NCBI GenBank assembly: GCA_000002445.1
Contig: AE017150.2
Coordinates: forward strand, 608,001 to 672,000
Direction: 5' to 3'
Origin: Trypanosoma brucei
Lineage: Eukaryota
Length of the DNA stretch: 64,000 nucleotides
The stretch's first letter is position 1. Each line of letters begins with the position of its first letter. The notes below the pieces were generated by a model. It had not been told where the DNA came from. It did not search any database and saw only the letters and a list, made by a program, of their open reading frames with translations. A program made the translations under genes and the position numbers. Below are positions 5,535-34,901 of the stretch, in pieces.

Positions 5535-5847
5535 ACTCACCTTCACTCTTGGACAAATGTGCAGTTTTTTTTTTTAAACAGCGAGTGTAAATAAGGAAAA
5601 CCAAAGAGAATAAAAATGATAATGAGTTGAATGAAAGTATATAGATTCATGAGATAAGGAAGAAGGTCTAGCAGCCTTTTCGTTGTTTTTGTTTTGTGGT
5701 AATACCTTACCTATATTTTTTTTAAAAATAAAGAATTGACACAATAGAGTAAATATTTTCGCTTGAAGAAGCCGTTGTTGATTTTCTCTTCCAGTCGTAA
5801 ATTCAGCTGATCGTTTAAAGCATCTATCTCTCACACTGTACGTCATC

Positions 5848-9079: not shown

Positions 9080-11488
9080 ACTCACCTTCACTCTTATACA
9101 AATGTGCAGGTTTTTTTTTAAACAGCGAGTGTAAATAAAAAAAAAATAATAATGACAGTGAATTGAAAACAGCTGCATAGATCCGTGAGACAGGGAAGAA
9201 GTGCCGGCGACCTTTGCTTTTCTTTTTCCTTTTTTTCACTACTTTTATGGCCGTCCGTAAGGCGGTCTATAGAAAGGTAACGCCTTTCTGCGGAACGGTT
9301 TCCCACGCCGTAGTTGTTGTTTCCACCTTGCTCATCGTAAATGAGTGTTTCTACCGGAACTAACTGTCATGTAAACTATAAGCTTCTTCACCTCTTGCTA
9401 AACTAGGAGTTTCATGTTGCGACAATAAGCACATCCCTTGACGCACTCAGTGTTCTTTCCATACGGAAGTTGCCTGTGGTTTTCAATCTTTGAGAGGTAT
9501 TACCTTGTTTGTGGAATGTGGACCGGAGGGCGGTGGCGGAGACTGGTACCGGAAGGCCATTTGGCACTGTGTCTACCTGGTGGCGTCGTAGGGGGCACCG
9601 GGTAACGAGGCGAGGGCGCGATGTGGAGTCGCCTTTTGGGTCATGGGGTTTTTGTTTTACCGGGAGACATGGCTCCTTTTTTCGTCCGCCTCCACCTGGA
9701 CTCTTACTTCACGCTCTGCTTTCGCTTCCCATGTAACGCAAAGGCGCGGGGGCATTATGTACGATGCCGCAGGGGGCGGGTTGCTGGGCACATTCGTGTT
9801 CACATGACTGGCGCAGTTCCGTTAAGCTTAGAACGACCAACGCGGCTGGCATCTTCTCAAAAGAGCGTGGCGTTGGGGCGCTCCCCCGAATTTGCTCGGG
9901 AAGGTAATGCAGTACAATTTCTTCATCGTGACGAGGCGGGTTGTCTTCGGTCTCTTTGCTGGCTCACCGATGTGGGCGTACAGTCTCGTCCTTCCCGAGA
10001 AGTTTTTCGTGCAGCACTGACCTCTCTGGACAGGGAAATTTTACCACTCGTCAGAGCGCCGAAATGTAATGCCGTCGAAACTTCAGGAAGCCAAATCGTT
10101 ACTACTCCTTGAGGGTAAGGCGGTGAGACCTCTCCCCTCTGTTTTATTGGCTGTGGTTGCGTTTCCTCCACCACTGTTGGCGGCTTTTTTTTCCACTGCA
10201 TCTGTGAGCCCATTTTTTCCCCTTAGCTCCTTCGGGGCGCCATGCTGCAGCTGGCGGTCGACAATTTCTGGCAACCAATCTCTAATCTTCTTTGGAAACG
10301 ATTGTTGTGTAGCCCGCTAAAACCCTTCAGCGCGCTCTGTTAGCATCGCATCTACAGCTAAACATAACTCCTCTTTACAACTTTCGGTTCCAGCGCACGG
10401 AAGGTTAATTGCTTTTTCTGACATTTGGGAGCCGCACCGTGCATTTGTCTTCTCAGGCCTCTGAGGTTTTCGAGACGCAAAGCTGTTCCTCACCCCGGAG
10501 ATATCACAACCACTGATGCGGGGATGGATCCCCCATGAGCACTGCTTTGAAGCTTGTCGAGGTCCGTTTTCCTTTTTCTTTTCGGACGGGTGCCTGAATT
10601 CCTGCATGTGGTTCCTAAAGTTGGGGAAGCGCTTATTGGCGCTGTGTGCCAGCGGTCATGTGTAGTTTGCGCATTCATTCGTCCCGTGAGCGAGCCCCAA
10701 CGTAGCGGTGGGATCGTTGCAACAGAAGAGGAAGAGAAAGAGAGGTTGAAAGTCTATTCTAAGGCGGATATTGTTCCGGGTCTTTTCCCAAGAGCGTAAC
10801 CCTCTGGACACGCATTGTGTACGATTGGTCTTTGGACGCGAAAGGGTACGTTCAGCAAGGCCGCTCATACGGAACGCCCAACCAAAACGTTCCTGTTTCC
10901 GTCAAACCATTATGGAAAAGAAATTGCCAGTAGTTTGAAAGCATTTAACCAATGCAACACTTCTCACTCTTTTTCTTGAGTCCCCGTCTTTTGGCGATAT
11001 CTCCAATCTTACGCGGTGGTTACACTCGCACTTCCCCCTTTAATCCTTCAACCACACTGATTTTTCCTCTAATAATTATTAAGCACTACCTTAGCATAAG
11101 CAAGACCATCCGCTACCAGGGGTAAATGTGTCCTTGGCGACTTTTTCCCTACCCGCAGCATCCCCCCTTTTTTGTTTCAAAACCGACCCAAATCTATTTA
11201 AGGTAACGGAACAGCGTCAGTATACGCGCATGTATATATGCCCCTTTTTAAAAATCCATTCCTTCTGCCGCTGACCGAACAACACAAGGGTAGGGGACCG
11301 GAAAAGAAAGAAAACCAAACCCTCCAGAGACAGTGGGGGCCTCTTTAACAGGGCAAGGCCGCTGTTTACCGCAATAAAATCCTCGAAACAAATTTTCCAC
11401 GGAGAAGCTGCTTTGCCGCCTTGTGTCAGAAATGGCGGTGAATACTAGGAAGAAAAGAAAAAGATGTGATGGTGGGTCCTTTCCTCAG
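9080..11488. other. Convergent strand-switch region. The last + strand gene ends at 9079 and the first - strand gene's 3' end is at 11489. It contains a GC-rich island of about 1.4 kb at about 9500-10900.
   Basis: All supported CDS up to 9079 are on the + strand and all supported CDS from 11489 onward are on the - strand. The island's base composition is visibly GC-richer than any other non-coding stretch in the window. Confidence 0.75.
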
Positions 11489-12136
11489 TTACACCATTTC
11501 CACTCTCCTTGGATATCCCTGAACCCTCATTTGATGTTGTTGTTGTGTCAGCAGGCACCCCAAAATCATCTCTTGGAGGGCCAGCCAAGCCCCGGGAACA
11601 AAACGAGGATCCCATAACAACAATAACAACGGAAGGAAGCAGGCAGCCGCTATGACCACTGTGTTCACGAGACTTTCCTGAAGTCCATAGTGTTGAAGAA
11701 CCATGAACCGATTCGCAAACACGGCGCACCACGGGCAGCAGAAGACTTCCGTGCCCATACAACATTTTTCGAACCCATGACAAACACAGCATGAGCACTG
11801 GCCACACATACCACCAAAGCAGGTGTATTGTTGAAAGTCGCTTAGTAGTAGCGCTTCCCGTTGCGCATAGGCACAAAATATGGTACCAGCACAGGAACCC
11901 AAGCAAAAGCAGCAATCTTTACAAGGGGCGGTGATCATTCCTGTTTCCCACTCATTTTCGGACCCCGGCGCACCCGACGCTCCATCACCAAACCCTTGGC
12001 CGGGAGGAACGTACGTTGACTTGGGAGGTTGGGGATATCCCTGGCCTGGTTTTGAAATGTCAACTTCACCCACTACAGGTGCCATTTCAGTTTCCCTTCC
12101 CCCACTTGGGTAGCTTTGGGCGGGGTTTTCAGACAT
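11489..12136 (-). CDS. PLAC8-family (FW2.2/CNR-like) Cys-rich protein of about 215 aa, with a Pro/Gly-rich N-terminus and a hydrophobic C-terminal extension.
   Basis: Signature Cys clusters: WETGMITAPCKDCCFCLGSCAGTIFC and CCMGTEVFCCPWCAVFANR. Compare human PLAC8 ...WQTGMCDCFSDCGVCLCGTFCF... and CCPHCTLCQ. The track start at 12169 is GTG, so I reset it to the first ATG at 12136 (MSENPAQ...). Confidence 0.7.
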   Translation of the reverse strand: MSENPAQSYPSGGRETEMAPVVGEVDISKPGQGYPQPPKSTYVPPGQGFGDGASGAPGSENEWETGMITAPCKDCCFCLGSCAGTIFCAYAQREALLLSDFQQYTCFGGMCGQCSCCVCHGFEKCCMGTEVFCCPWCAVFANRFMVLQHYGLQESLVNTVVIAAACFLPLLLLLWDPRFVPGAWLALQEMILGCLLTQQQHQMRVQGYPRRVEMV

Positions 12137-15668: not shown

Positions 15669-16802
15669 TCAGCATTTCCCACGAGCGAAATTTTTGTCTT
15701 TCCACTGCAGCACCACGGGCGGAGGCGTTTCCGAGTTGTTGGGAAACAACTTCATTAAATATCCGTAATCCTTTTCCTTAATATGATGAACAACCATAGT
15801 TTTTTCTGTAACCACCTTTGACAAACGCCTCCTTAAATGACTAATGTAGTGGCATCTACCAATATCAGCCGTCACAAGATCGCTATATCCCACCTTTTCC
15901 CCTAACGTCACGGCCACCATCACATCTTCATTAAACATCGCCATTTCACGGAAATCTTCTATGTTACTTTCCGAATAAGGTGTATTTACTAAACGCTCAA
16001 GTGGACTGTAATTTACTACACCATCTGCAACATCTCGTGATAATGTAACACAATATCCTGCTATAAATGGAACCCATCTGTCTACGAAAACTTCAGGTGT
16101 TAGGCCATACCAACCCATGTATAAACGATATTTTGGCATTAATTTCAGGCTAGATAAATAATACGGAACTCTAATGAACAAATCATCATCGGCCTTCATT
16201 ATATACGTTGCAGTTCCAAAAAAATTCGAGGCGAATTTGAGCCACAAATATGTCTTTTTGCTCATTACCAGTTCCACCTCATTTCCCCAACTTTGCAACT
16301 CGCCGATTACCTTACCATTTGTTGAGGGTACATCAAACGTTGGGAGCACAATAATATCATGATTTTTTTGTGCCTCAGCCCTCACGGAATCGGAGAGGAT
16401 GAAATCATTTCTCTCATGAGGGGAGAGAAGATATAATGGTATAAGATCGCCTGCGAAATCATTGCGTCTCGTGGCAACACCACCATATGTCCAACATGTG
16501 GATCGTTGCAACCCACGCCTTCTAAACCGCTCCTTGTTGTCTATTGAAGGTATGCCAGCTGCCACAAGATATTTGGAGCTCTCCCAGATTTTAATAGTTT
16601 TCTCGGGGACAAGTGTCAGGTACTCGTCATTATCGACTTCGGTTAAGTGCATCTGCTGACGCCTCTGCTGGAATGTTAGTTCTTTTCGTTTGGGTTGTTT
16701 ATTTATCCAAGCTATGAATAGTACAGCAAACACAAGAAAAACAACCAATACGATGCGCTTCCTTCGTGTGGAGCCCACCATCTGTAAACCCTTCGACACC
16801 AT
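15669..16802 (-). CDS. Putative UDP-sugar-dependent glycosyltransferase (377 aa), a type-II membrane protein. It resembles the trypanosomatid family of beta1-3 Gal/GlcNAc transferases.
   Basis: Short N-terminal cytoplasmic tail (MVSKGLQMVGSTRRKR) followed by one TM helix (IVLVVFLVFAVLFIAWI). A DxD-type motif sits at IMKADDDLFIRVPYY. The overall size and topology fit a Golgi glycosyltransferase. Start ATG checked. Confidence 0.65.
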   Translation of the reverse strand: MVSKGLQMVGSTRRKRIVLVVFLVFAVLFIAWINKQPKRKELTFQQRRQQMHLTEVDNDEYLTLVPEKTIKIWESSKYLVAAGIPSIDNKERFRRRGLQRSTCWTYGGVATRRNDFAGDLIPLYLLSPHERNDFILSDSVRAEAQKNHDIIVLPTFDVPSTNGKVIGELQSWGNEVELVMSKKTYLWLKFASNFFGTATYIMKADDDLFIRVPYYLSSLKLMPKYRLYMGWYGLTPEVFVDRWVPFIAGYCVTLSRDVADGVVNYSPLERLVNTPYSESNIEDFREMAMFNEDVMVAVTLGEKVGYSDLVTADIGRCHYISHLRRRLSKVVTEKTMVVHHIKEKDYGYLMKLFPNNSETPPPVVLQWKDKNFARGKC

Positions 16803-20936: not shown

Positions 20937-22088
20937 TTACTCACCCTTCTTGCGCTCGCGGTGAAACTGCTTCCGTTGTGCGCGCATACGCATGATTTCC
21001 TTTTGAACCCTCGCAGCTTCAGTCATATTTGACCATAATTGCTCACCATGTGGGGCCGTCTCCGCAGCCGAATTCGTAAGTGATTGCCGACCCTTCTGTT
21101 GTTCTATCCATGCAACTCGCCGCAGGTACGACCGCACGGCGTCTCCACCAGTTCCTTCCGTCCCGGCAACTACTTCACTACGACTCATGATGGATTCAGC
21201 CATAATTTCCCACTGCAACCGCTCTTCCACTTTCCCACTCCCAGCCACACCCCTGCTGGAGTTCTGATCGCCCCCGGGCGCTTTTTCCGAGCCGCAGGAG
21301 CCGTTGTTGTGCGCACCCGCTGAACGCATTCCCCCGTCTAGCGGCTTGCGAATAGCTTCCAATATCAAGCGGTCCTCCTCCTTGTGATGGGGGAATCCAC
21401 GTTCCACGCCGCTATCATTTTGTGTCGTCTTTCCCTCTCCGCCTTCTTGGCTGTGGCTTACCGTTCCATCTCTATTTTTTGCTTTCTTTCCCTTCTCATT
21501 GTCATCCGTTGTCTCCTTTTCTGGTGTTTTGCTTTTTTGAGCTGCACTTCGCAGCGCAGTTTCTGACCTACGGAGTTCGTTCTCCAACAACGTGAGGAAA
21601 CCTAATTGTGTTGGCAGCGCTACCCTGTCGTCTATTGACCGCAGAAGTGCTCCGCCATCGCCATTTGACGGCTCATCGTCAGTCCGCTGCCGTTTTTGCG
21701 GGTTGCTAAATATCACACCGCTGCCGTCCATTTCCGCTGAAGTTAAGGAATAAATGCGATAAACATCAGATCCGTAGCACAACAGATTACATTCCGCCCG
21801 CGGGTCATCTGGGGTTTCCTGGGCGTATGCGCGTGCTTTGGCGAGTAGAGGAAACTTTCGAAGCAGCAGTTGTGAGCCAACTCGACTCCGCACGTCACCT
21901 GAGGTGTCAGTTTCCCCTCCTAATTGTGGTGTTGCACTCATTCGTTTCCACACCAGCGCCACCGCCGCTACTGCTTGCGTGCTCCCTAAAAGTCCATTGA
22001 AAAAGAAAAAAAAAAGAGAAACAAAGACGTGAAAAGGAGTCGGTTGGTGGACGATGAGGGGGAAAAGAAACGCCACAACCGATGCCAT
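20937..22088 (-). CDS. Hypothetical protein (about 383 aa) with a basic C-terminus. The true start may be an internal Met (MSATPQ..., about 21941) because the first ~45 codons translate an A/T homopolymer region.
   Basis: Long ORF on the polycistron strand. The N-terminal FFFFF stretch derives from a poly(A) tract at about 22005-22020. Confidence 0.5.
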   Translation of the reverse strand: MASVVAFLFPLIVHQPTPFHVFVSLFFFFFNGLLGSTQAVAAVALVWKRMSATPQLGGETDTSGDVRSRVGSQLLLRKFPLLAKARAYAQETPDDPRAECNLLCYGSDVYRIYSLTSAEMDGSGVIFSNPQKRQRTDDEPSNGDGGALLRSIDDRVALPTQLGFLTLLENELRRSETALRSAAQKSKTPEKETTDDNEKGKKAKNRDGTVSHSQEGGEGKTTQNDSGVERGFPHHKEEDRLILEAIRKPLDGGMRSAGAHNNGSCGSEKAPGGDQNSSRGVAGSGKVEERLQWEIMAESIMSRSEVVAGTEGTGGDAVRSYLRRVAWIEQQKGRQSLTNSAAETAPHGEQLWSNMTEAARVQKEIMRMRAQRKQFHRERKKGE

Positions 22089-23649
22089 ACACCTTAGGGA
22101 CTTGTATAGTTACCGCAGTGCAGTTCTCCAATAATTTCCAACAAAGAAAGAAAGAAAGGAACCATGACAAATTACAATCTCACGAAGAGAGGTGCAGATT
22201 AAAATTGCTCCCCCGCACTCATACTTTTTTTTATTTTTTAAATTCTTTCTCGAATGTCCATACACAACTTGCGTTGAAGGAGGCAACGCACAAGACATTG
22301 AGACTGTGTTTTTGTTGCACTTTGCCCCGCGGTCAATAAGCCCCGACATTTTGTATAATATCCTTCTCTTCTCTTCTACTTTTTTTTCTTTTTAAATACC
22401 TTTTGCCGATGTTGTTTCGACGTACTCATTCTTCTGTAAAGGGCGGGATGCCGATCTCGCGCCAATCCGCCAGGAGGTTTCCCTCCGACCCGAGTCCCAT
22501 AACGCCGCTGAGGCCTCCCGTGGCAGTCGCTACAGCCGCCGCCCGTCGCATGCCTAAAGTTGGCGGGAGATTTGCAGGGAAGGCGAAACTTGAGGGATCA
22601 TCGAAGTCAACGAGTAACTCCAACTTGGGTTGTTGGATGGTAAGCGTAGCATCCTCTAAATACCAGCGGCGATGAATGTAACGGGAGTCCCTGGAAACCA
22701 TCACGACCTTTTCTTTTCTATCTCCCTCTCTCTCTCTCTCTTCTGTCTACTTCCTTTTTATCTTTCTTTTTTTTTTTTTGTGTGTGTGTGTGTGCGGACC
22801 CTTTTCTACTCCTCTGATTTTCTATTTAAGAAGCCTTTCCGTTGCGATCTCTGTAATGGAGTTACGCTTGCAAAAACTTCTATCGACGGCACATGCAACG
22901 GATTACGTGAATGCGGAAGGAATGCCAACATAAGAAAGCAACATAAATATATGAATGCTGGGAAAATGCATATAGAACGGTAGCCCCGCTGCGGAGCTAC
23001 AAACAAATTATAGGCGCCAGCGGATACACAAAACGTCGCAGCACTTAAATATCTCGGCTATCTGACGGTGCCCAATTCCGTCTCTTTTCCCTCTCGTTTG
23101 CGGCAGCGAGAAAACAAAAAGTCATGGGAATAGAATACACCCTGGAGGAATCCTGCGCCGCCTAAATACAAAGCCGCTCCGCTCAATGACGAAGAGGGCT
23201 AATGGTAGCAACGGATGGGAACGGATTTATGCGAATTGGTTGTCCAGTGGCATGCGCCACTCCACAGGACCGGGCACATCATATGAGGGTAATTCAGTGT
23301 AATGTAACAGAAGGGGAAGGCAACATAACAAAAAAAAGGAAGAAAGTACACCATGTACCTTACAACAAATCCAACTCCCTCCACATTCTGAGGCCAATAC
23401 CCATTTCCCCATGGGTACGACATTACGGCACGCGCCCGAAAAAAAGGGAAAAAATTGCTGCAAAAAGAAAATAGCAGCATCATACGGTCCGGCTCCACTT
23501 CACTCAAAACGGAAAAATAGTTAGGGTGAAGAAATCGGTTTGTATGAACAACATACGTGAGCGTATACATATATATATATATATATATATATTGCACAAA
23601 CGCTGGTCTCGCTCACACTCGTTTCAATTCGACATCAATCGAACTGATC

Positions 23650-24471
23650 TTATTCATACCGCACCCACCCCTGCACTGTGACATTATCCTTTTCACGTAC
23701 GGTACATGCCGTGCCATTGGGATTACATGACAAGTTAAGCACACGCGAGTAATTATGATACGGGCCTGGCCATGCTGTGTTTTCCCAGTTCTGTTCCGCT
23801 ACAAACATACGATCCCCTGTCACACCCGCAACAACGGCAACATGACCGTATGGAAAACCATTGGGTTGCCGTGGGTAAATCAACAAATCCCCCACACGCG
23901 GCTTAGAGTTTGCAGATGTTGCATTTCCGTTATGATATTTGAGTAATGGTTTCCGCTTTTGACCATTGAGCAGTTGAACATCTTTAAGATCCCAAATGTC
24001 AGCTGCTCCATCTACAGAACCAAAAGTGGCTGGTTGTGGTGTACCTCGAAGCATCCAATACCGTCGGGCATATTCCACGCATTGCCATTGCATACCATAT
24101 ATGGGTGGAACCGCATGAGGGTCCACACGACCAGCCGGTATCCGTATGTCTTCCACCTTGACAGTGTTCCAAAGTTCTGCTGTGCAACTATCACTGTTGC
24201 AATTGCTCATAGCTGGAACTCCGTTGTAAATTCCCAACACATTACCAAAAGGGGCCGAGCAATTCTGTTGGCAGCCCACTGAAAGACTCCCAGTGTTTGT
24301 ACTCACCGTATCTTTACTATTTTCCGCGCGAGGGACCTTCATAAGGCAGAGAATGATGACAACTCCCACAGCAAATGAGGCGCCTGCGTAAAGCTTATAT
24401 GAGTCGAAGTTTCTTGCCTCACCCTCACGTTGTAAAAGAGGTCTGGCGGTGCCTGCTTTCCTCGCCGCCAT
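23650..24471 (-). CDS. CHAP-domain protein (Cys/His amidohydrolase, like the glutathionylspermidine/trypanothione-synthetase amidase domain), 273 aa, with an N-terminal signal anchor.
   Basis: Catalytic-Cys motif QCVEYARRYW (compare Gsp/TryS amidase QCVEFARRF/W...). Catalytic-His motif GHVAVVAGVTGDRMFVAEQNW (compare GHVAIIT....IAEQN). Hydrophobic segment ASFAVGVVIILCLMKV near the N-terminus. N-glycosylation sequons (NGT, NYS, NLS, NVT) occur in the catalytic half. Confidence 0.8.
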   Translation of the reverse strand: MAARKAGTARPLLQREGEARNFDSYKLYAGASFAVGVVIILCLMKVPRAENSKDTVSTNTGSLSVGCQQNCSAPFGNVLGIYNGVPAMSNCNSDSCTAELWNTVKVEDIRIPAGRVDPHAVPPIYGMQWQCVEYARRYWMLRGTPQPATFGSVDGAADIWDLKDVQLLNGQKRKPLLKYHNGNATSANSKPRVGDLLIYPRQPNGFPYGHVAVVAGVTGDRMFVAEQNWENTAWPGPYHNYSRVLNLSCNPNGTACTVREKDNVTVQGWVRYE

Positions 24472-25648
24472 TGCTTCAATTTACACGATACCTCGGGGGA
24501 GGGGGAGGGGCAAAATTAAACTCGATAAACAGGCGAAAAGGGAGTAATGAAGAAGACGAAGGAATTATTTGGTTTATGAACTGTGAGGCTGTATAAATGA
24601 ACTATTATCCACTGTTTCGTACCCCAATCACGCGTGTGCTCACAGCAGGTACTTTCTTTCCTTCCCCCCTTTTTAGTTAATTTGTTTCCTTTTTACCTCC
24701 TAATTACGGGATGGGGTTTCTGTATTTGCTCCCGCTGACTTGTCAGTGAATGAGTATTTGGGACCTTTCAAAGCTGAATAGAAGAGCAACAAAACAAAAC
24801 AAAATGTATAACTCACGAAAAGAAGTCACGTTGTGCGACGTAGCTCCTCAATCGTTTGACAATAATAGATAGCATCACCATATTAAGCAGCAGTAAGGAA
24901 ATAAAAAATAATTTGAAGTAATATAGAAAAGTAAAGGTAGAAAAAATAGAAAAATAAAAATGTTTTCAACACCGTATCGCAGTTGCTTTACGTTTCGTTG
25001 CACCTTTCCTTTCTTTCCCCTTCCTGCCTCTCCACAGTTGTCTGTATTTTTATGCTAAATTTTGTCTACTTTCTCTTTTTTTTTTTTCGTGACCCGCTTC
25101 TCGTTCCCACCAATCACTTGCTCGTATGCCTTCCCTAGAACTAGATTTGTTAAAAAATATTACCCTAGTTAATTAATTAATTTAAATATATTTGCGTTTT
25201 TAAAGAAGGAACCGTTTGGTGGGGAGCGACACCAACTGGCTGGCACATTACCCTCATAACCGGCTTTGTGCTCCACTTCTTCACCGTTGCCGTTGTCGTT
25301 GTTGCTAAATACGCAATATATAAAACAACGTGGACGAAAAGAGGGTAAAATCAAAACAAATTTTGCGCGGAGAATCATCAATTGATGCGAAGCGAAGGCC
25401 AAATGCTTTGAAAAAGTGTGACAACGACACCAAACATATAAAATATGCTTAAATTGCTCCTCGAAAAATAAGATAAAAATAGGAAACTATGGGAGGAACA
25501 AGAAAATCACCTTCCCCCTGTTTTCCTACAGAATCCACCTACCTGTCACCAGAAGTTACCAACTGATGAAATTACTTGCCGTTTTTGTTAAGAAAGTCAC
25601 TAGTAGAGGAAAACAAAACAGAAAAAAAAACGAACAATCGAACTGATC

Positions 25649-26491
25649 TTATTCATACCGCACCCACCCCTGCACTGTGACATTATCCTTTTCACGTACG
25701 GTACATGCCGTGCCATTGGGATTACATGACAAGTTAAGCACACGCGAGTAATTATGATACGGGCCTGGCCATGCTGCGTTTTCCCAGTTCTGTTCCGCTA
25801 CAAACATACGATCCCCTGTCACACCCGCAACAACGGCAACATGACCGCATGGAAAGCCGTTGGGTTGCCGTGGGTAAATCAACAAATCCCCCACACGCGG
25901 CTTAGAGTTTGCAGATGTTGCATTTCCGTTATGATATTTGAGTAATGGTTTCCGCTTTTGACCATTGAGCAGTTGAACATCTTTAAGATCCCAAATGTCA
26001 GCTGCTCCATCTACAGAACCAAAAGTGGCTGGTTGTGGTGTACCTCGAAGCATCCAATACCGTCGGGCATATTCCACGCATTGCCACTTTAAGCCGCTTT
26101 GGTAACTGGTTCCAGCCACTGTGACGTTGTTATACGTAGTGGTATTCTCTGTTGCACCACAGTTGCTGTAAGAGAAGACGCCCTCATGTGCGCCAAGAAT
26201 AGCACCGACTGGATTGAGGCAATGTTTTTCCACTTTGCCGCTGCCTTCGGGGTAGCGAATGCCAGAGTAAAGCACGCCAAAGGCAATGAAAGAAATAAAA
26301 AGAAGAACGAGTACGCCAAATGTCCAAGCGAATATCGCCTGGGCAATTGAGCATAGGCGTTTTATACCACGCTTCCGGTTGTTGAAAGAACCATTAATGG
26401 CTCCATCATTGGTTTCTGGGACATCGTGAGGATCTTTTTCGTTAGATGAAAGTCGATTAGTCTTCGATGTTACCGCTGGCTCTCTTTCCAT
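25649..26491 (-). CDS. CHAP-domain protein, paralog 2 (280 aa). It has a longer cytoplasmic N-terminus and a different TM anchor and stalk. Its C-terminal ~154 aa are identical to the paralog except for 2 residues.
   Basis: Same catalytic motifs (QCVEYARRYW and GHVAVVAG). TM segment AIFAWTFGVLVLLFISFIAFGVL. Nucleotide identity with 23628-24085 extends about 10 bp past the stop codon. Confidence 0.8.
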   Translation of the reverse strand: MEREPAVTSKTNRLSSNEKDPHDVPETNDGAINGSFNNRKRGIKRLCSIAQAIFAWTFGVLVLLFISFIAFGVLYSGIRYPEGSGKVEKHCLNPVGAILGAHEGVFSYSNCGATENTTTYNNVTVAGTSYQSGLKWQCVEYARRYWMLRGTPQPATFGSVDGAADIWDLKDVQLLNGQKRKPLLKYHNGNATSANSKPRVGDLLIYPRQPNGFPCGHVAVVAGVTGDRMFVAEQNWENAAWPGPYHNYSRVLNLSCNPNGTACTVREKDNVTVQGWVRYE

Positions 26492-27581: not shown

Positions 27582-28727
27582 TCACTGTTCAGCACCATCC
27601 ACCACCTTCTCAGTTTCCTCCTTGTCCTCATGAACTTCCCCAACTGGCGTTGTTCCGAGGGCCCGCTTCGCCAGCAGTTGCTTCTGAACCTCCTCAGGCA
27701 GTTGGCGAAACCAGTAATCAAGAATGCCTTTAGAGAACCTAACAATATGAGGTGGAAAACCATCAGATAGGAATTGGCCCACAGCCACCCCAATCTTGGT
27801 GCCTATAAGTTGTTTCAGGGTAACGTTTGCACTCGCCAAGGAGGAAAGTAAGGAAACAATACGTTCCTCGTTTGCGATGCTAACCTCAACAACGTCACCG
27901 TTCAGACATTCCATGTACGTCTCTGTAAGTTCCTTCCCTGTAGTTTCTAAAGTTGCGTTCGTCACATCATGACGGCTCTTGCGCAGCATATCCACAACAT
28001 AAGCCACGTCGTCGTCTGCAGATGCGGCAGATCCTTCCCTTCCCACAGTGTCGTACGTTGCATTAGGGAGGTCTCTACCATCTTCACGGCCTCGTTTCCT
28101 TTCGGTACGTTTGCCGTACTCATCATCACTGGAGCCACCAGCCAACTCGGACTCGGAGCTGTCGCCACCAAAGTCCCTCAGAGTCTTGATTTTTCGCTTT
28201 TTTCTGTGGCGCTGCCCACTTTCCTCACTTTTTGTCTCCTTCCTTGAGATGTGATGACGTCCTTCGTCTTCTTTCCGCCTCTCTTCCACATGCTTTGATG
28301 CACCTCTTCTTAACGATAGTTTCCGTCGTTGCGGTGCTTCAACCGCTTTTTGCTCTCCGCCGTCGGCGAATTCCGTTTTTACACCTCTAACCCTCCGTTC
28401 ATTTGTTCCTCCAGCTTGTGCCTTGAGTTGTTCTTCATATAGTTGTATCGCCTCTTCGATTGCGACCGCGCAGCTCGCGTCTAACTTTCCTTCTTCCATC
28501 ATTCCCTCATCTCGATCCGGAAGAAAATATCTAATTTGCCCCTCATCTTCGCTGTTGGCGGCTGAGAGAGTGAGGGAATCGCGAGGAAGACAACAAACCC
28601 ACACGTCTGACCCCTCAGGCAGTGTTATGTCCCTGACCTCGTCGGGGTCCATGACAAAACCCGGCCACCAGGGGAATCGATCCTGTTTCAACCACACAAG
28701 GGTCCCTGGAGCAAATGATGGAATCAT
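27582..28727 (-). CDS. PWWP-domain protein (382 aa from the first ATG) with a C-terminal TFIIS N-terminal-type (TND/LW) domain and no TFIIS domains II/III or Zn ribbon.
   Basis: PWWP motif VWLKQDRFPWWPGFV near the N-terminus. The C-terminal segment SLASANVTLKQLIGTKIGVAVGQFLS parallels LASVSVTLRQLLRTKIGVSVSRALS of the neighbouring TFIIS paralog. The ORF-track start at 28787 is GTG. The first ATG (MIPSFAPG...) is at 28727. Confidence 0.7.
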   Translation of the reverse strand: MIPSFAPGTLVWLKQDRFPWWPGFVMDPDEVRDITLPEGSDVWVCCLPRDSLTLSAANSEDEGQIRYFLPDRDEGMMEEGKLDASCAVAIEEAIQLYEEQLKAQAGGTNERRVRGVKTEFADGGEQKAVEAPQRRKLSLRRGASKHVEERRKEDEGRHHISRKETKSEESGQRHRKKRKIKTLRDFGGDSSESELAGGSSDDEYGKRTERKRGREDGRDLPNATYDTVGREGSAASADDDVAYVVDMLRKSRHDVTNATLETTGKELTETYMECLNGDVVEVSIANEERIVSLLSSLASANVTLKQLIGTKIGVAVGQFLSDGFPPHIVRFSKGILDYWFRQLPEEVQKQLLAKRALGTTPVGEVHEDKEETEKVVDGAEQ

Positions 28728-30765
28728 TTTTTTTCTTTTCCCCCCGTGGCTGGATGGGTTCAAAATGATGTCCCGACTGGTGTGCACATGTTTTTTTTAC
28801 CCGGTAATTGTAATATATGTAATGTATATATAAATATATATACGTATACGTGGTGGTGTGTGTGTGTGGGAGGGGGGGGGGAGGTGAGTAAAGTATGAGA
28901 GGAAAAAAAGAAAAAGAAAAGGAGAAAGAACAGAGGAGTTGAGAGACACTGACTTGTGAAAAGTAAACTCAAATAAAGCAGGATGGGACCAGGAACTGGA
29001 AAACGTGCAGGGGTAAAGGGAGTTAATGTACTGCTCCACCTCGTTATTACGCCCTTGTTGTTATTTTCCGTTTAGTTTATTTATTTGTAGGGGGACAAAC
29101 AAAACAACGTGCTATAGGGAGGGTGGAGATTTCCACCGGTCTACAGTAGTGTGACAACAAATCGCACGGATATAAGTAGAAAAAAAAACTAAAGAAAATG
29201 AAAGAAAGCTCGCAAGGGTGGAGATTTTTAGAAATACGGTAATAGCATTGTTGGCTTTTCTTTTTCTCTTAACCTCTTGTTTGATGTACAAACACTCGTG
29301 GGGGTTCATTTACCTTTTGAATTCTTTCTGTATTTCCCCTTCAATGCGTGCTAATATATTTAAGAATATATTTCAATTGAAGAAGTATTCTTTCTCAGAA
29401 TCCACTCCACCATCCCCCACCTTTGGCTTCGGCTTTGGTCTCGTCTTTCTTTTTTTTTTTTTTGTAGCCTTCATGTATTTACATATTCCCTTCACTCGGA
29501 CGCTTGATCTGGCCTTTTTTTTCTTTACGTTTTACTCTACTTCCCCTTTTAAAATTCTTTGCAAATCAATATGTTGCTTCCGGCTCCCTCTTCGTCTCTT
29601 CCTCTTTTTTTTCCGTTATTTCTCTTTCAATGTTATAAAAGGAAATAAAAAATTCACAAGGCGACTCCACCGTCGACATGATGTACTGAAACACGTAGAC
29701 ATCTGAAGATAAGGAATAATAATAGTAATAATAAAGGCGAAGAGTAAAACACACGCACACACACAAAGCCCAAGGGAAGAGGAAAAAAAAAGGTATAAAT
29801 CAATACATACATTTTATGTGTGTACATGCCACACGTAAAATAAAGAAAGAAAGTAAAAGCAAAAACGTGCATTTGGTGCGGCGGCAAATGGGAACAACAA
29901 AAACAACAAAAGAAAATTGCGTAAAGGATACTCGTGGGGGCTTCGCTGTACGGGGGCAGAAGGAAACCCAGTGGCATGAAACTAATATATATATATATAT
30001 AATTAATTAATTATTTATTTATTATATTTCCTTCAAAGTTTCCCCCTCTGGCGTTTCAATCTTGCTTTTGGTTCTTATCCCCATTCTCATTTTCACTCTC
30101 CTCGCTTTCATTTTCCCCTTTTCTTCTCTTCTCTTTTTTTTCCTTTTCAAATTTAAGCTTGCTTTTGTCTCTTGAACTTAGCCGAAGATACGTTACCGTA
30201 AATAATCGCCTGAAAAAGATGTTAAAAAGCAAATTCTTCTTTCCGTCCTTTTTTTTTTTGAAAAATAAAACAAGCACATCCCTGTTGACTTCTTTTCCCT
30301 TCACTTCTCTTTTAGACCGCATAAAGTAACTCCTCTTCCGTTGGGCGTAAAACAGAATATGAAGAGAAAAAAAAAAGAAGGTGAAGGTGAAGGTAAAGGA
30401 AGAAACAGGGTACTCAAGAAAAAAAAAACGCAAAAAAAAACTACAAAAGCAAAATCAACGGCAAAGCAGTGTTTTTCCTTTTTTTTGATTCCTTCACCGC
30501 ATTTCACATTCTCTTCTGGTGACAAACTGAGGCTCAGGCTCCACCATAAGAGAATATGAAAAAAAACATACAAGAAAAAAGAAAAAAATAGTAACGGTAG
30601 ATAAGTAAGTGACGCCAAGTGAATTAATACATATATCCTGATCGGCATTAATTTACTTGGCATTATTCGTTAAACAGCACGTGTGCTCATAAAAAAAGAA
30701 AAAGAAAGAAAAACATCGGTGCAAGATAAGTAAGGACAAATGCAATGATACGCACGGTAGTGACA

Positions 30766-33497: not shown

Positions 33498-34901
33498 CTA
33501 ATTCTCTGACCAATTATGTTTGCACTTAATGCACTTAATAAATTTAGTTGTCGGTTCATCCGCTGACCGGATCTGTAGTTCTCTCCATTCACATTCCCTT
33601 CCGTGACACTCCGGGCATTCAAAAAGTGAGGTGGTATGCAACAGCGACCGCTCGGTTTCTTCCAAGTTTCTTAGTTTCTCCGTAGTTCGGCGCTCTGCGT
33701 CCTCTTTTTCCTCTTGCGTCATTAGTTCCCAGCGACTGAGTTCGAGAAAATCCTTTCCACTCAGCTCCCCCATCGCCAGCCTGCGCCGTATTTCTGATAA
33801 CCCCGGTTTACTCAAATGCTCCAAAAGATACATGCGGTCCTCCGATCTTGTTACCTCAGCGCATATTTTTTCCGCTACAGATCTGAGATCATCACTTCTA
33901 ACACTAAAACTATGCGGATCCCCCGGTTGGAGAAGCAGCTTCTGCACCCGGTCAACAAACTGTGGTTGTGCCCCTCCTCCAATAGTAATTGGGTTGCCCA
34001 CGCTTTCACTTGTTGACGGTGTTGCCACATCCCGTTCCTCCCTCGTTTGTGAACTGGAAATGGTTCCCCGTCTTTTGTTATGGCGTGCACCGCCGCTCCG
34101 CGCCGTCCCCCCTCTTTTTTTGGCTTCCTGCTCGTACTTGTTGTACTCTTCAATTGCTCTCACAGTTTCCTCCGGTAGTTTGGCTGTCCAAGCGGAGATG
34201 ATACAAGTAGCCAGGCTCCTTTGTTCTTCTAGATCCTTTTTTGACAAGGCCCTTGAAACCGACACACCAATTTTTGTGCGCAAAAGCTGCCGGAGTGTAA
34301 CACTGACGCTCGCAAGTTTCAGAAGCGTGCTGGTAAGCAGAGCCCCGTCGCAGTTATCAGTGGCTTCATCAATATCTTTTTTCCATTGCACCAGTGCGTC
34401 GTCCGATGCGGGGGATAAGTGAGAGCCGGTACTCCTCTGTCGCATCCGGCTCACCTCACGGCTGCGTTTGCCCCCTGCAGTTTGCTGAGTGGCATTGTTA
34501 AGCGAACCCGCTCGCCCGCTTGTCGAAAACGCCCTCTGTGATGTTCCCCTCGGCGCCGTATTTTTTGAATGAGTCGGCTCAAATCGCAATGCGTTGGACT
34601 CCTTGTCCTCCTCTGCGTTACGAATAGCTTGCAGAAGATCCTCATTGGCGGTGACGGCTTTCTCAGATGAGGGCTCAAAAAATGTAATGGCGGAGGAGTG
34701 GCTGTCAACATTTTTATAGGTGGCCTTATTTTGGGTTCCTGGATACGTGAGAACGGTAACCGTAGATGTGCCAGTTTCTGACGACCTTCCGTCAACTCCC
34801 TCCACACCGGTAACTGAAGTGACTTTTGCCGGCCACCACGTGTTAGCTCCAGTCTTTAGCCAGACACGGTCGTTAATATGAAATACTCTTTCTTGAAGCA
34901 T
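33498..34901 (-). CDS. TFIIS2-2: Transcription elongation factor TFIIS paralog with an N-terminal PWWP domain (467 aa). The architecture matches the PWWP-containing trypanosome TFIIS2-2.
   Basis: N-terminal RVWLKTGANTWWPAKV (PWWP). Central TFIIS-N domain. Acidic-loop/domain III region. C-terminal Zn ribbon CPECHGRECEWRELQIRSADEPTTKFIKCIKCKHNW, with the canonical RSADEP motif and four Cys. ATG checked. Confidence 0.85.
   Translation of the reverse strand: MLQERVFHINDRVWLKTGANTWWPAKVTSVTGVEGVDGRSSETGTSTVTVLTYPGTQNKATYKNVDSHSSAITFFEPSSEKAVTANEDLLQAIRNAEEDKESNALRFEPTHSKNTAPRGTSQRAFSTSGRAGSLNNATQQTAGGKRSREVSRMRQRSTGSHLSPASDDALVQWKKDIDEATDNCDGALLTSTLLKLASVSVTLRQLLRTKIGVSVSRALSKKDLEEQRSLATCIISAWTAKLPEETVRAIEEYNKYEQEAKKRGGTARSGGARHNKRRGTISSSQTREERDVATPSTSESVGNPITIGGGAQPQFVDRVQKLLLQPGDPHSFSVRSDDLRSVAEKICAEVTRSEDRMYLLEHLSKPGLSEIRRRLAMGELSGKDFLELSRWELMTQEEKEDAERRTTEKLRNLEETERSLLHTTSLFECPECHGRECEWRELQIRSADEPTTKFIKCIKCKHNWSEN

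What the first reader, a model, noticed from the sequence alone, without database searches (positions are those of the whole stretch)
23628..26491. Tandem pair of membrane-anchored CHAP (trypanothione-amidase-like) proteins: identical catalytic halves, unrelated N-terminal halves
The two adjacent - strand genes share an identical tract of about 460 nt covering the whole C-terminal catalytic half. There are 2 aa differences in 154 aa, and the identity runs about 10 bp past the stop codon. The N-terminal 120 aa (cytoplasmic tail, TM anchor and stalk) are unrelated between the two. This is the footprint of recent gene conversion, or of a domain-swap duplication. The catalytic half matches the CHAP amidase of glutathionylspermidine/trypanothione synthetase-amidase through the QCVEYARRYW Cys motif and the GHVAVVAG...AEQNW His motif. 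Unlike that cytosolic enzyme, these proteins have a signal anchor and several N-x-S/T sequons inside the catalytic half. That predicts a lumenal or extracellular, N-glycosylated amidase. Trypanothione and glutathionylspermidine are cytosolic, so a secretory-pathway or surface CHAP amidase would be expected to act on a different gamma-glutamyl or amide substrate. I am not aware that this has been characterised.
Basis: partly seen in the sequence, partly recalled or inferred. Interest (0 to 1): 0.75.

Follow-up and report, generated by a model that had tools for sequence, protein, structure and literature searches.

The report
Gene-converted pair of membrane CHAP amidases
Two neighbouring Trypanosoma brucei genes encode membrane-anchored enzymes that probably face away from the cytoplasm and resemble the amidase that splits glutathione from spermidine; their catalytic ends are kept almost identical by repeated copying between the genes, in every trypanosome species examined, and the enzymes' substrate is still unknown.

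Summary
Two minus-strand genes of T. brucei TREU927 chromosome 2 (273 and 280 aa; probably Tb927.2.3440 and Tb927.2.3460) share a 452-nt tract with 4 mismatches. It starts 6 nt before the catalytic Cys codon and ends 14 nt after the stop.

The "unrelated" N-terminal halves are only partly unrelated. Their last 45-60 residues are the diverged first third of the same amidase domain, so the tract boundary lies inside the domain.

The pair is ancient. A-type and B-type N-termini are orthologous across Trypanosoma and Leishmaniinae, in conserved synteny. In seven Trypanosoma species the C-terminal halves are near-identical within species; in the five checked at the DNA level, synonymous sites match too and the boundaries are the same. 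That is recurrent partial gene conversion, not a recent domain swap.

Sequence and predicted fold place both proteins in the glutathionylspermidine/trypanothione-amidase branch of CHAP, not with peptidoglycan hydrolases, despite the database name "D-alanyl-glycyl endopeptidase-like".

They look like type II membrane proteins, and the L. major A-type orthologue carries an N-glycan inside the CHAP domain. The nearest non-trypanosomatid relatives are bacterial proteins with signal peptides or lipoboxes.

The genes were already catalogued as uncharacterised MEROPS C51 members. The substrate remains unknown. Interest is moderate.

The parts
23650..24471 (-). Gene A (273 aa; XP_951594/Q586Y2; probably Tb927.2.3440): short cytoplasmic tail, one membrane anchor, Gsp-amidase-like CHAP domain
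   Evidence: ORF; 100% match to the T. brucei TREU927 protein; Pfam CHAP 52.1 bits against a cut-off of 26. The gene id is inferred from gene order relative to Tb927.2.3370.3400.3480 and .3580.
25649..26491 (-). Gene B (280 aa; XP_951595/Q586Y1; probably Tb927.2.3460): longer cytoplasmic tail, long membrane anchor, Gsp-amidase-like CHAP domain
   Evidence: ORF; database match; Pfam CHAP 50.3 bits. Tb927.2.3460 is called a 'cysteine peptidase family gene' that is up-regulated during differentiation.
23636..24087 (-). Converted tract, copy in gene A: codons 129-273, the stop codon and 14 nt of 3' flank
   Evidence: 452 nt with 4 mismatches to 25635-26086.
25635..26086 (-). Converted tract, copy in gene B: codons 136-280, the stop codon and 14 nt of 3' flank
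24088..24273 (-). Gene A residues 67-128: non-converted first third of the amidase domain (CxxxC...PFG..LG...SNCxSxC, four Cys), including the loop that lines the active-site cleft in L. major trypanothione synthetase-amidase
   Evidence: Aligns to E. coli Gsp amidase residues 5-55 and to LmTSA residues 12-58; 33% identical to the B counterpart. Role of the loop in LmTSA is from PMC2427367.
26087..26230 (-). Gene B residues 88-135: non-converted first third of the amidase domain. It keeps only two of the four Cys, has two sequons (NTT, NVT) in the cleft loop, and is about 13 codons shorter than in A
24334..24402 (-). Gene A membrane anchor (about residues 24-46)
   Evidence: AlphaFold2 helix 24-44; Kyte-Doolittle maximum 2.06 at residues 28-46, and a charged N-terminal tail.
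26258..26356 (-). Gene B membrane anchor (about residues 46-78), preceded by NRKRGIKR
   Evidence: Kyte-Doolittle maximum 2.53 at residues 53-71; 5 K+R residues in the N-flank against 2 in the C-flank. The motif FGVL..LF...FGILYSGI.Y is conserved in B-type orthologues.
24079..24081 (-). Catalytic Cys131 codon of A. The B equivalent, Cys138, is at 26078-26080
   Evidence: Aligned to Cys59 of E. coli Gsp amidase and of LmTSA; invariant in 71 family members.
23842..23844 (-). Catalytic His210 codon of A. The B equivalent, His217, is at 25841-25843. Glu226 and Asn228 follow in the motif AEQN
   Evidence: Aligned to His131, Glu147 and Asn149 of E. coli Gsp amidase; all invariant.
24472..25648 (-). 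1,177-nt spacer between the genes (B 3' flank and A 5' flank). It is not homogenised
   Evidence: Background identity outside the tract.

Best explanation
A and B are ancient tandem paralogues. They arose before Trypanosoma and Leishmaniinae split. Both encode type II (N-in, C-out) membrane-anchored, N-glycosylated cysteine amidases of the glutathionylspermidine/trypanothione-amidase branch of the CHAP superfamily. The family most likely came from a bacterial clade of secreted or lipoprotein homologues.

In Trypanosoma the two genes remain 1.2-2.4 kb apart. There the 3' ~450 nt, from just before the catalytic Cys codon to just after the stop, are repeatedly overwritten by intrachromosomal gene conversion. 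Both proteins therefore carry the same catalytic core (Cys-His-Glu triad plus the oxyanion Asn).

The 5' ~385-405 nt of each coding sequence evolve independently and stay orthologous between species. They encode the cytoplasmic tail, the membrane anchor and the first third of the domain, including a loop that lines the active-site cleft. The flanking untranslated regions also evolve independently of each other.

Shown here: the tract, its boundaries, the homogenisation of synonymous sites, the orthology of the N-termini, the synteny, the family and fold assignment, and the conserved catalytic residues. Glycosylation was shown by others, for the L. major orthologue only.

Inferred: the sharp boundaries are held by lack of homology (an indel plus high divergence upstream, divergent 3' flanks downstream). 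The enzymes hydrolyse a glutathionyl- or gamma-glutamyl-type amide in the secretory or endocytic lumen or at the cell surface. A and B differ in targeting, in stage regulation and possibly in preference for the leaving group.
For: Tract: 452 nt with 4 mismatches.

Same pattern elsewhere: T. theileri, T. vivax, T. cruzi and T. melophagium have tracts of 449-491 nt with 0-4 mismatches. They start between -29 and +4 nt from the Cys codon and end 1-31 nt after the stop, and identity in the 200 nt on either side is 0.28-0.45.

Synonymous sites: 4-fold sites in the C-terminal part differ by 0-3% within a species, by 57-77% between species, and by 32% between the close pair T. theileri and T. melophagium.

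Trees: in the C-part tree the two paralogues of a species are sisters with 100% bootstrap in 7 Trypanosoma species, while Leishmaniinae A and B form separate clades at 100%.

N-terminal regions: the best cross-species BLASTP hit is of the same type in 28 of 28 cases. Orthologues score 57-186 bits in Trypanosoma (up to 384 in Leishmaniinae), against 29-44 bits for a protein's own paralogue.

Synteny: the order TFIIS2-1, TFIIS2-2, B, A is conserved. In L. major and Leptomonas, B and A are separated by at least two other genes and are not homogenised.

Strain level: V165I in A and V172I in B change together in gambiense and in one of the two equiperdum assemblies.

Family: Pfam CHAP; family profile against E. 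coli Gsp amidase E 1e-39 over residues 5-193, and against LmTSA 1.5e-33; NCBIfam best hit is GspSA at 1e-21.

Fold: the top 20 Foldseek hits are all Gsp or trypanothione amidases (E 4e-14, TM up to 0.85, rmsd 2.4-2.8 A over about 204 columns). Endolysin CHAP domains reach only E 1e-4 and TM below 0.45.

Catalytic residues C131, H210, E226 and N228 are invariant in 71 sequences.

Topology: one hydrophobic segment follows a hydrophilic tail of 22-154 aa in 27 orthologues, with a mean of 2.9 K+R in the N-flank against 1.3 in the C-flank. An L. major glycopeptide lies within the CHAP domain.

Bacterial relatives have a signal peptide or lipobox and the same CxxxC...SNCxSxC pattern.
Against: No biochemical, localisation or glycosylation data exist for the T. 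brucei proteins themselves. The sequon that is glycosylated in L. major is not a sequon in T. brucei (LLNGQ).

The positive-inside bias is only moderate: the N-flank has more K+R than the C-flank in 18 of 27 proteins.

The tree for the N-terminal part of the domain is weak, with 62 columns, ortholog pairs at 57-76% bootstrap and a global A/B split at only 30%. In that tree the T. vivax pair groups together (70%), so conversion has sometimes reached further upstream.

The residues proposed to bind polyamine in LmTSA (Asp38, His39, Thr123, Asn126) are not conserved here. They are not conserved in E. coli Gsp amidase either, so this says little about the substrate.

The gene neighbourhoods of the bacterial relatives gave no metabolic clue.

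The mechanism that fixes the tract boundaries is inferred, not tested.
Confidence: 0.8

Rival explanations
1. A recent duplication in T. brucei followed by replacement of the 5' half of one copy with unrelated sequence (a domain or exon swap). On this view the shared half is simply young.
For: Within T. brucei alone the pattern of an identical 3' half and unalignable tails and anchors fits this reading.
Against: The same B-then-A pair sits in the same syntenic position in T. theileri, T. vivax, T. cruzi, T. melophagium, L. major and Leptomonas. The N-termini are orthologous by type in 28 of 28 best hits. The non-converted part still contains a homologous but diverged third of the domain.
Confidence: 0.03
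2. The identity reflects extreme purifying selection on the catalytic half, without any sequence exchange between the copies.
For: The catalytic core is conserved across the family.
Against: 4-fold degenerate sites are 97-100% identical within a species but 57-77% different between species. The identity also runs 1-31 nt into the 3' flank.
Confidence: 0.01
3. The identical tract is an assembly artefact.
For: Repeats like this do disturb assemblies. The T. conorhini contig ends 1.5 kb after gene B and gene A lies on a contig of 4,957 bp. T. grayi and T. rangeli each show a single copy.
Against: The two TREU927 copies differ at 4 positions and have unique flanks. Both genes are present in independent assemblies of T. 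b. gambiense and T. equiperdum with strain-specific substitutions. The same structure is seen in long contigs of four other species.
Confidence: 0.01
4. The proteins are peptidoglycan hydrolases, as the database name 'D-alanyl-glycyl endopeptidase-like' suggests. They would be displayed or secreted to attack or digest bacteria in the insect gut.
For: Most extracytoplasmic CHAP domains are cell-wall hydrolases. The family was probably acquired from bacteria (PMC4711719). Trypanosomatids share the insect gut with bacteria. There are weak hits to PcsB, ScrM and endolysin CHAP domains.
Against: Similarity to peptidoglycan hydrolases is marginal and partial (E 1e-3 to 1e-5, TM below 0.45). Similarity to Gsp/trypanothione amidases covers the whole domain (E 1e-39 for the profile, TM 0.85), including the N-terminal PFG..LG..YSN segment and the QCVE[YF]ARR signature. 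Pfam finds no cell-wall-binding module.
Confidence: 0.12
5. The proteins are non-catalytic, for example receptors or scaffolds built on a dead amidase fold.
For: A neighbouring third paralogue in L. major has Cys replaced by Ala, so pseudo-enzymes do arise in this family.
Against: Cys, His, Glu and Asn are invariant in A and B and in 71 relatives.
Confidence: 0.04

Closest known systems
Amidase domain of E. coli glutathionylspermidine synthetase/amidase (GspSA; PDB 2IO7, 3A2Y, 3A2Z, 3A30)
   Same: Homology and predicted fold match over the whole domain of about 190 aa (profile E 1e-39; Foldseek E 4e-14, TM up to 0.85). The Cys59/His131/Glu147/Asn149 equivalents, the QCVE[FY]ARR signature and the N-terminal PFG..LG..YS segment are all present.
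   Different: It is a cytosolic domain fused to an ATP-grasp synthetase. It has no membrane anchor, no N-glycans and none of the four N-terminal Cys. Identity is only about 26%.
[quoted passage not shown]
   Same: Same CHAP branch (profile E 1.5e-33; Foldseek E 7e-12). Both belong to MEROPS C51, and the T. brucei members were grouped together by Mashiyama et al. 2012 (PMC3516576).
   Different: TryS is cytosolic and bifunctional, and its amidase site is gated by the synthetase C-terminus (PMC2427367). A and B are stand-alone, membrane-anchored and extracytoplasmic. They are no closer to TryS than to bacterial Gsp amidase, so they are not a recent copy of the TryS domain.
Uncharacterised bacterial stand-alone homologues with a signal peptide or lipobox (about 205-235 aa; e.g. 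Plasticicumulans acidivorans DSM 23606, Ectothiorhodospiraceae and Thiotrichales genomes)
   Same: These are the closest relatives outside trypanosomatids, at 35-42% identity. They are extracytoplasmic, share the CxxxC...P[FY]G..LG...AYSNCxSxC four-Cys pattern with the A type, and have the same catalytic signature.
   Different: They carry a cleaved signal peptide or lipid anchor rather than a type II anchor with a cytoplasmic tail. They are single-copy. Their function is also unknown.
CHAP peptidoglycan hydrolases (staphylococcal and phage D-alanyl-glycyl endopeptidases, LysK/LysGH15 CHAP, PcsB), the source of the database name
   Same: Same superfamily, the same Cys-His core, and extracytoplasmic action.
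   Different: Only marginal, partial similarity (E 1e-3 to 1e-5, TM below 0.45). They lack the N-terminal subdomain and the QCVE[FY]ARR signature. A and B have no cell-wall-binding modules.
Partial gene conversion and concerted evolution in T. brucei tandem arrays (Jackson 2007, PMC1855330; PGK array)
   Same: Paralogues are more alike within a species than between species; copies are chimaeric; copies with disrupted flanks keep their orthology.
   Different: This is a two-gene array, and it is not named in the main text of that survey. The same intragenic boundaries recur in five species checked at the DNA level, and the pattern recurs in seven at the protein level. The boundary cuts through a single catalytic domain.

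Membership tests
CHAP domain (Pfam PF05257; MEROPS clan CA, family C51) | HMM match above the curated threshold | tested here: met
   52.1 bits (A) and 50.3 bits (B) against a cut-off of 26.
CHAP domain (Pfam PF05257; MEROPS clan CA, family C51) | Conserved catalytic Cys and His in the expected motifs | tested here: met
   C131 and H210 in A, C138 and H217 in B. They align to Cys59 and His131 of Gsp amidase and are invariant in 71 relatives.
Glutathionylspermidine/trypanothione amidase branch of CHAP | Homology over the whole ~190-aa amidase domain, including the N-terminal PFG..LG..YS subdomain | tested here: met
   Profile against 3A2Z covers residues 5-193 at E 1e-39; NCBIfam GspSA positions 8-189 at E 1e-21.
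Glutathionylspermidine/trypanothione amidase branch of CHAP | Third triad residue (Glu147/Asp146) and oxyanion Asn (Asn149/Asn148) in the motif AEQN | tested here: met
   E226 and N228 are invariant. The roles of these residues are taken from PMC2427367.
Glutathionylspermidine/trypanothione amidase branch of CHAP | Predicted fold superposes on solved Gsp amidase better than on any other CHAP structure | tested here: met
   The top 20 PDB hits are all GspSA or TryS (TM up to 0.85, rmsd 2.4-2.8 A); the next class of hits has E 1e-4. The model has a mean pLDDT of 80.7, and above 90 in the core.
Glutathionylspermidine/trypanothione amidase branch of CHAP | Fusion to an ATP-grasp synthetase domain and a cytosolic location | tested here: not met
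   The proteins are 273 and 280 aa with only a CHAP domain. They have an N-terminal anchor, and the orthologue is N-glycosylated.
Glutathionylspermidine/trypanothione amidase branch of CHAP | Hydrolysis of glutathionylspermidine or trypanothione | not testable with these tools
   This needs an enzyme assay. The proposed polyamine-contact residues of LmTSA are not conserved, but they are not conserved in E. coli GspA either.
CHAP peptidoglycan hydrolases (D-alanyl-glycyl endopeptidase type) | Significant full-domain similarity to characterised muralytic CHAP domains | tested here: not met
   Only partial matches: E 1.6e-5 for PcsB over 49 profile positions, Foldseek E 1e-4 or weaker with TM below 0.45, and NCBIfam ScrM/PcsB at E 6e-4 or weaker.
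CHAP peptidoglycan hydrolases (D-alanyl-glycyl endopeptidase type) | An accompanying cell-wall-binding module (SH3b, LysM and the like) | tested here: not met
   No other Pfam domain at E up to 1.
Type II (signal-anchor) N-glycosylated membrane protein | A single internal hydrophobic helix after a hydrophilic tail too long for a signal peptide, with more positive charge on the N-terminal side | tested here: met
   Tails of 22-154 aa in 27 orthologues; Kyte-Doolittle maxima 2.06-2.92; mean K+R 2.9 in the N-flank against 1.3 in the C-flank, with the N-flank higher in 18 of 27; AlphaFold2 helix 24-44. This is prediction only.
Type II (signal-anchor) N-glycosylated membrane protein | Occupied N-glycan sites in the C-terminal domain | tested here: inconclusive
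   Shown by mass spectrometry for L. major LmjF.33.2850 (Hex6HexNAc2 on the NAT sequon of GAADIW...LDNATTAPLLK; supplement of PMC9769760). There are no data for the T. brucei proteins, and that particular sequon is absent in T. brucei.
Concerted evolution by partial gene conversion | Paralogues are more similar within a species than orthologues between species, at synonymous sites too | tested here: met
   4-fold site differences of 0-3% within species against 57-77% between species; 100% bootstrap for conspecific pairs in 7 species.
Concerted evolution by partial gene conversion | Discrete tract boundaries, with the flanks keeping orthology | tested here: met
   Boundaries lie within 33 nt of each other at the 5' end and within 30 nt at the 3' end in 5 species. 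N-terminal best hits are of the same type in 28 of 28 cases.
Concerted evolution by partial gene conversion | Exchange still going on among present-day lineages | tested here: inconclusive
   V165I in A and V172I in B change together in gambiense and in one of the two equiperdum assemblies relative to TREU927. This is protein-level only and could also reflect sorting of ancestral variation.

The most novel reading that the evidence does not exclude
Trypanosomatids, and a sizeable group of mostly gammaproteobacterial species, may have an unrecognised extracytoplasmic arm of glutathionyl-amide metabolism. A Gsp-amidase-like enzyme facing the lumen or the cell surface would cleave exported or environmental glutathionyl-polyamine or related gamma-glutamyl/glycyl amides, for example to salvage spermidine and thiol, or to process a conjugate not yet described. 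In Trypanosoma, gene conversion keeps one catalytic core while two diverged N-terminal modules deliver it to different compartments or life-cycle stages, possibly with different preference for the leaving group. Each module comprises the tail, the anchor and the cleft loop.
Probability: 0.2. Interest if true: 0.65.

Novelty: new member of a known kind. Interest (0 to 1): 0.4.

Why it matters
1. The database name "D-alanyl-glycyl endopeptidase-like", and the GO terms "cytoplasm" and "ligase" carried over from TryS (seen in the supplement read), probably mislead. The evidence points to an extracytoplasmic amidase of the Gsp type.

2. Thiol-polyamine metabolism in trypanosomatids is a long-standing drug-target area and is treated as purely cytosolic. 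A lumenal or surface homologue that is absent from mammals raises a concrete, testable question about its substrate and its role.

3. The locus is a clean natural example of concerted evolution confined to part of a single domain. The same boundaries recur across the genus Trypanosoma, and the process is switched off in Leishmaniinae, where other genes separate the paralogues.

4. It is also a practical warning. Orthology calls and trees built on the CHAP domain alone will wrongly suggest independent duplications in each species, and short-read assemblies break or lose a copy at this point.

Tried and rejected
- **Substrate from LmTSA residues.** I compared the LmTSA residues proposed to contact spermidine (Asp38, His39, Thr123, Asn126; PMC2427367) with A and B. 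They are not conserved, but they are not conserved in E. coli GspA either, so the comparison is uninformative.
- **Gsp-complex structure paper.** The paper on the Gsp amidase complex (doi 10.1002/pro.589) is not held in the library, and the review that is held gives no binding residues.
- **Gene neighbourhoods of the bacterial relatives.** Across 80 loci the recurrent neighbours are tig (27 loci), clpP (10 loci) and a 293-aa membrane protein (17 loci). No glutathione or polyamine operon appears. One locus lies next to a phytochelatin-synthase-like gene, which is a single case.
- **A third paralogue in T. brucei.** I tested whether the T. brucei gene downstream of A (20937-22088) is a third CHAP paralogue like the one in L. 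major. It shows no similarity.
- **Bootstrapping.** A Biopython bootstrap run timed out. I replaced it with my own neighbour-joining bootstrap.
- **RNA and repeats.** An Rfam scan of the whole window found nothing. The tandem-repeat scan of 22.0-33.5 kb found only short simple repeats.
- **Literature on function.** Searches by gene id found no localisation, knock-out or enzymology data for Tb927.2.3440, Tb927.2.3460, LmjF.33.2830 or LmjF.33.2850.
- **Disulfide geometry.** The model coordinates are not exposed to scripts, so the predicted Cys pairing could not be checked.

Full report
**Where this is.** The window is Trypanosoma brucei brucei TREU927 chromosome 2. The two proteins match XP_951594 and XP_951595 at 100%, on a contig of 1,193,948 bp. 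The neighbours are the ISG65 array (681-9079), a galactosyltransferase gene at 15669-16802 (probably TbGT3), TFIIS2-2 (27582-28787, Tb927.2.3480) and TFIIS2-1 (33498-34901, Tb927.2.3580). By gene order, the gene I call A (23650-24471) is probably Tb927.2.3440 and the gene I call B (25649-26491) is probably Tb927.2.3460. That assignment is an inference. The literature names both ids in this context: Tb927.2.3440 as a gene of prokaryotic origin, and Tb927.2.3460 as a "cysteine peptidase family gene".

**The observation.** An ungapped comparison at offset 1999 shows a block, 23636-24087 = 25635-26086. It is 452 nt long with 4 mismatches, and identity drops to background immediately on both sides. 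The block covers codons 129-273 of A (136-280 of B), the stop codon and 14 nt of 3' flank. Two mismatches are synonymous (N204, G205) and two change the protein (Y208C, T232A).

The real correction concerns the "unrelated" N-terminal halves. A residues 68-127 align with B residues 88-134 (33% identity over 45 codons). Both stretches align to residues 5-55 of the E. coli Gsp amidase domain. So the tract starts inside the catalytic domain, 6 nt before the Cys codon, and not at a stalk/domain junction.

The tract is not an assembly artefact. Both genes occur in independent assemblies of T. b. gambiense DAL972 and T. equiperdum, each with its own substitutions.

**What the proteins are.**
- Both pass Pfam CHAP (52 and 50 bits against a cut-off of 26).
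- A profile of 71 family members matches E. coli Gsp amidase at E 1e-39 over residues 5-193 of 197, and L. major trypanothione synthetase-amidase at 1.5e-33. Peptidoglycan hydrolases reach only about 1e-5, over a fragment.
- The best NCBIfam hit is the amidase part of bifunctional GspSA, at 1e-21.
- An AlphaFold2 model of A has a mean pLDDT of 80.7, and above 90 across the core. Its top 20 PDB matches are all GspSA or TryS amidase domains, with TM up to 0.85 and rmsd 2.4-2.8 A over about 204 columns. A gap then separates them from phage endolysin CHAP domains at E 1e-4 and TM below 0.45.
- C131, H210, E226 and N228 align with the Cys/His/Glu(Asp) triad and the oxyanion Asn of those enzymes, and are invariant in the family (roles from PMC2427367).

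The database name "D-alanyl-glycyl endopeptidase-like" comes from the type peptidase of MEROPS C51. It is probably misleading.

**Topology.**
- All 27 trypanosomatid orthologues examined have one hydrophobic segment after a hydrophilic tail of 22-154 aa. That tail is too long for a cleaved signal peptide.
- There are more K+R residues on the N-terminal side: a mean of 2.9 against 1.3, with the N-flank higher in 18 of 27 proteins.
- The model of A has a helix at residues 24-44.
- Direct experimental support exists for an orthologue. The L. major A-type protein LmjF.33.2850 is listed in an N-glycoproteome, with the peptide GAADIWDSLTHVTFLDNATTAPLLK carrying Hex6HexNAc2. This peptide lies between the catalytic Cys and His (PMC9769760 table and supplement).

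The CHAP domain of that orthologue therefore enters the ER lumen. For T. brucei this is inference from homology, because that particular sequon is absent there (LLNGQ).

**Where the family comes from.** The nearest non-trypanosomatid relatives are 35-42% identical, against about 26% for GspA. They are bacterial proteins of about 205-235 aa, with classical signal peptides or lipoboxes. They share the cysteine pattern CxxxC...P[FY]G..LG...AYSNCxSxC with the trypanosomatid A type (TbruA C67, C71, C91, C96). The cytosolic Gsp and TryS amidases lack these Cys.

A genome scan found at least 105 such loci. Most are in Gammaproteobacteria (Ectothiorhodospiraceae, Thiotrichales, Plasticicumulans acidivorans and P. 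lactativorans type strains), and some are in Bdellovibrionota. This fits the published listing of Tb927.2.3440 and LmjF.33.2830 among genes of prokaryotic origin (PMC4711719). So the enzyme was probably extracytoplasmic before trypanosomatids acquired it, rather than a relocated copy of TryS. The bacterial proteins are uncharacterised too, and their gene neighbourhoods (tig, clpP, a membrane protein) give no functional clue.

**The identical tract is recurrent partial gene conversion between ancient paralogues.**
- *Synteny.* The order TFIIS2-1, TFIIS2-2, B, A is conserved in T. theileri, T. vivax, T. cruzi and T. melophagium; the T. conorhini contig ends just after B. In L. major and Leptomonas the order is the same, but a 394-438-aa gene and one to four phosphatase genes lie between B and A.
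- *N-termini.* In an all-against-all BLASTP of the regions upstream of WQCVEY, the best cross-species hit was of the same type in 28 of 28 cases. Orthologues scored 57-186 bits in Trypanosoma and up to 384 bits in Leishmaniinae, against 29-44 bits for a protein's own paralogue. B-type anchors share FGVL..LF...FGILYSGI.Y from T. brucei to Leishmania.
- *C-termini.* By contrast, the tree of the C-terminal part places the two paralogues of each of seven Trypanosoma species together with 100% bootstrap. Leishmaniinae A and B form two separate clades, also at 100%.
- *DNA level.* In five species the near-identical tract is 449-491 nt with 0-4 mismatches. It starts between -29 and +4 nt from the Cys codon and ends 1-31 nt after the stop. 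Identity in the 200 nt on either side is 0.28-0.45.
- *Synonymous sites.* 4-fold degenerate sites in this part differ by 0-3% within a species and by 57-77% between species. They differ by 32% even between the close relatives T. theileri and T. melophagium.

This rules out purifying selection as the cause. It also shows that exchange has continued since those two species separated. Within T. brucei, position 165 of A and position 172 of B carry Val in TREU927 and Ile in gambiense and in one of the two equiperdum assemblies. That hints at exchange after strain divergence, though sorting of ancestral variation is not excluded.

**Why the boundaries are sharp (inference).** Between the SNC motif and the Trp before the catalytic Cys, the A type is about 13 codons longer than the B type. 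The alignments of all five species place an indel block directly upstream of the tract. Downstream, the 3' flanks do not align. Once the flanking sequence is too diverged to form heteroduplex, conversion cannot extend into it, and the boundary then maintains itself. T. brucei recombination is known to be sensitive to mismatches; I state this from general knowledge and did not test it here.

Adjacency seems to matter. The Trypanosoma pairs are 1.2-2.4 kb apart and are homogenised. The Leishmaniinae pairs are separated by other genes and are not. T. vivax has the longest upstream extension (-29 nt) and the most similar N-terminal domain parts (51% aa identity), and its pair groups together in the weak N-part tree (70%). 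So the boundary has not been absolute.

**Functional reading.** Both proteins carry the same catalytic core. They differ in three ways.
- The cytoplasmic tail and the anchor differ, which probably affects sorting.
- The untranslated flanks differ. In trypanosomes these control stage-specific expression. Tb927.2.3460 is reported as up-regulated during the bloodstream-to-procyclic transition and from midgut to salivary gland.
- The first third of the domain differs. That part includes the loop after YSN, which in LmTSA carries Asp38 and His39 at the amidase cleft. In A this loop is Cys-rich (SNCNSDSC). In B it carries two sequons (SNCGATENTTTYNNVT).

I therefore propose that A and B deliver one amidase core to different places or stages, possibly with different preference for the leaving group. 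The substrate is not known. The full-domain similarity and the QCVE[FY]ARR signature suggest a glutathionyl- or gamma-glutamyl/glycyl-type amide. The alternative, a peptidoglycan substrate, is possible but less well supported.

**What was already known.** The genes are annotated. CHAP/C51 proteins of L. major were noted as "not yet investigated" in 2007 (PMC2244715). Mashiyama et al. 2012 listed five T. brucei C51 members, with TryS the only one characterised. They noted aligned active-site residues and predicted amidase activity (PMC3516576).

Concerted evolution and chimaeric copies in T. brucei tandem arrays are well described: 21 of 47 arrays, with PGK as the classic case (PMC1855330). That paper's main text does not name this pair.

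What I did not find in the literature searched:
- the extracytoplasmic topology discussed as such;
- the link to a secreted bacterial clade;
- the genus-wide conversion with conserved boundaries inside the domain.

**Verdict.** The feature is real and well explained. It is a new, tidy instance of known kinds of thing: a CHAP amidase family, and partial gene conversion in a trypanosome tandem array. One open and testable question remains, namely the substrate and role of an extracytoplasmic Gsp-amidase-like enzyme. Interest is 0.4.

Noticed in passing
window 681-9079 (+) and about 9100-11500: Three tandem ISG65 genes (436-437 aa; Pfam ISG65-75, E 1e-101) are transcribed towards the minus-strand gene cluster that begins at about 11.5 kb. 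GC skew changes sign near 10 kb. This looks like a convergent strand-switch (transcription termination) region.
   Followed up: partly
L006 9631-11088 (L. major, directly downstream of LmjF.33.2850): A third, very diverged CHAP-like gene (485 aa) whose catalytic motif reads KWQAL, with Cys replaced by Ala. Only weak hits (tblastn 25-36% identity; NCBIfam GspSA 5e-5; Pfam CHAP 0.005). Probably a pseudo-enzyme. The T. brucei gene in the equivalent position (window 20937-22088) is unrelated.
   Followed up: partly
L002 9046-9813 (T. vivax A copy): An in-frame 33-nt deletion inside the otherwise 100% identical converted tract removes 11 residues (NGTSVPLAKIT in the B copy). It must be younger than the last conversion across that spot.
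   Followed up: no
L003 7001-7933 (T. cruzi B copy): The catalytic motif reads LEWDCMEFARRYW, where the A copy has WQCVEYARRYW. In this species the identical tract starts 4 nt after the first base of the Cys codon, so the residues around the nucleophile differ between the two T. cruzi paralogues.
   Followed up: no
L005 (T. conorhini) and protein hits P0009, P0011, P0015: The T. conorhini contig ends 1.5 kb after gene B, and gene A lies on a separate contig of 4,957 bp. T. grayi and T. rangeli each show only one paralogue. This is probably assembly breakage or collapse caused by the repeat, not gene loss.
   Followed up: no
window 27582-28787 (-) and 33498-34901 (-): A second pair of old neighbouring paralogues lies next door: TFIIS2-2 (PWWP plus Med26, no zinc ribbon) and TFIIS2-1 (PWWP, Med26 and the TFIIS zinc ribbon). 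Their synteny with the CHAP pair is conserved from Trypanosoma to Leishmania and Leptomonas.
   Followed up: partly
L011 6001-7514 (Ectothiorhodospiraceae genome): One bacterial homologue lies tail-to-tail with a phytochelatin-synthase-like gene, which belongs to a family of glutathione-processing papain-like enzymes. This is a single case and does not recur in the other 80 loci.
   Followed up: partly
window 23849-23860: Three of the four tract mismatches cluster within 12 nt, just before the catalytic His (N204, G205, Y208C). The Y/C difference is shared by TREU927, gambiense and one equiperdum assembly, while another T. equiperdum B copy has Y. It is either a patch that escapes conversion or a maintained difference next to the active site.
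   Followed up: partly
supplement of PMC9769760 (file 4): Automated GO terms for LmjF.33.2830 and LmjF.33.2850 read 'ligase activity; cytoplasm'. They seem to have been carried over from trypanothione synthetase, and they contradict the same paper's glycopeptide evidence.
   Followed up: no
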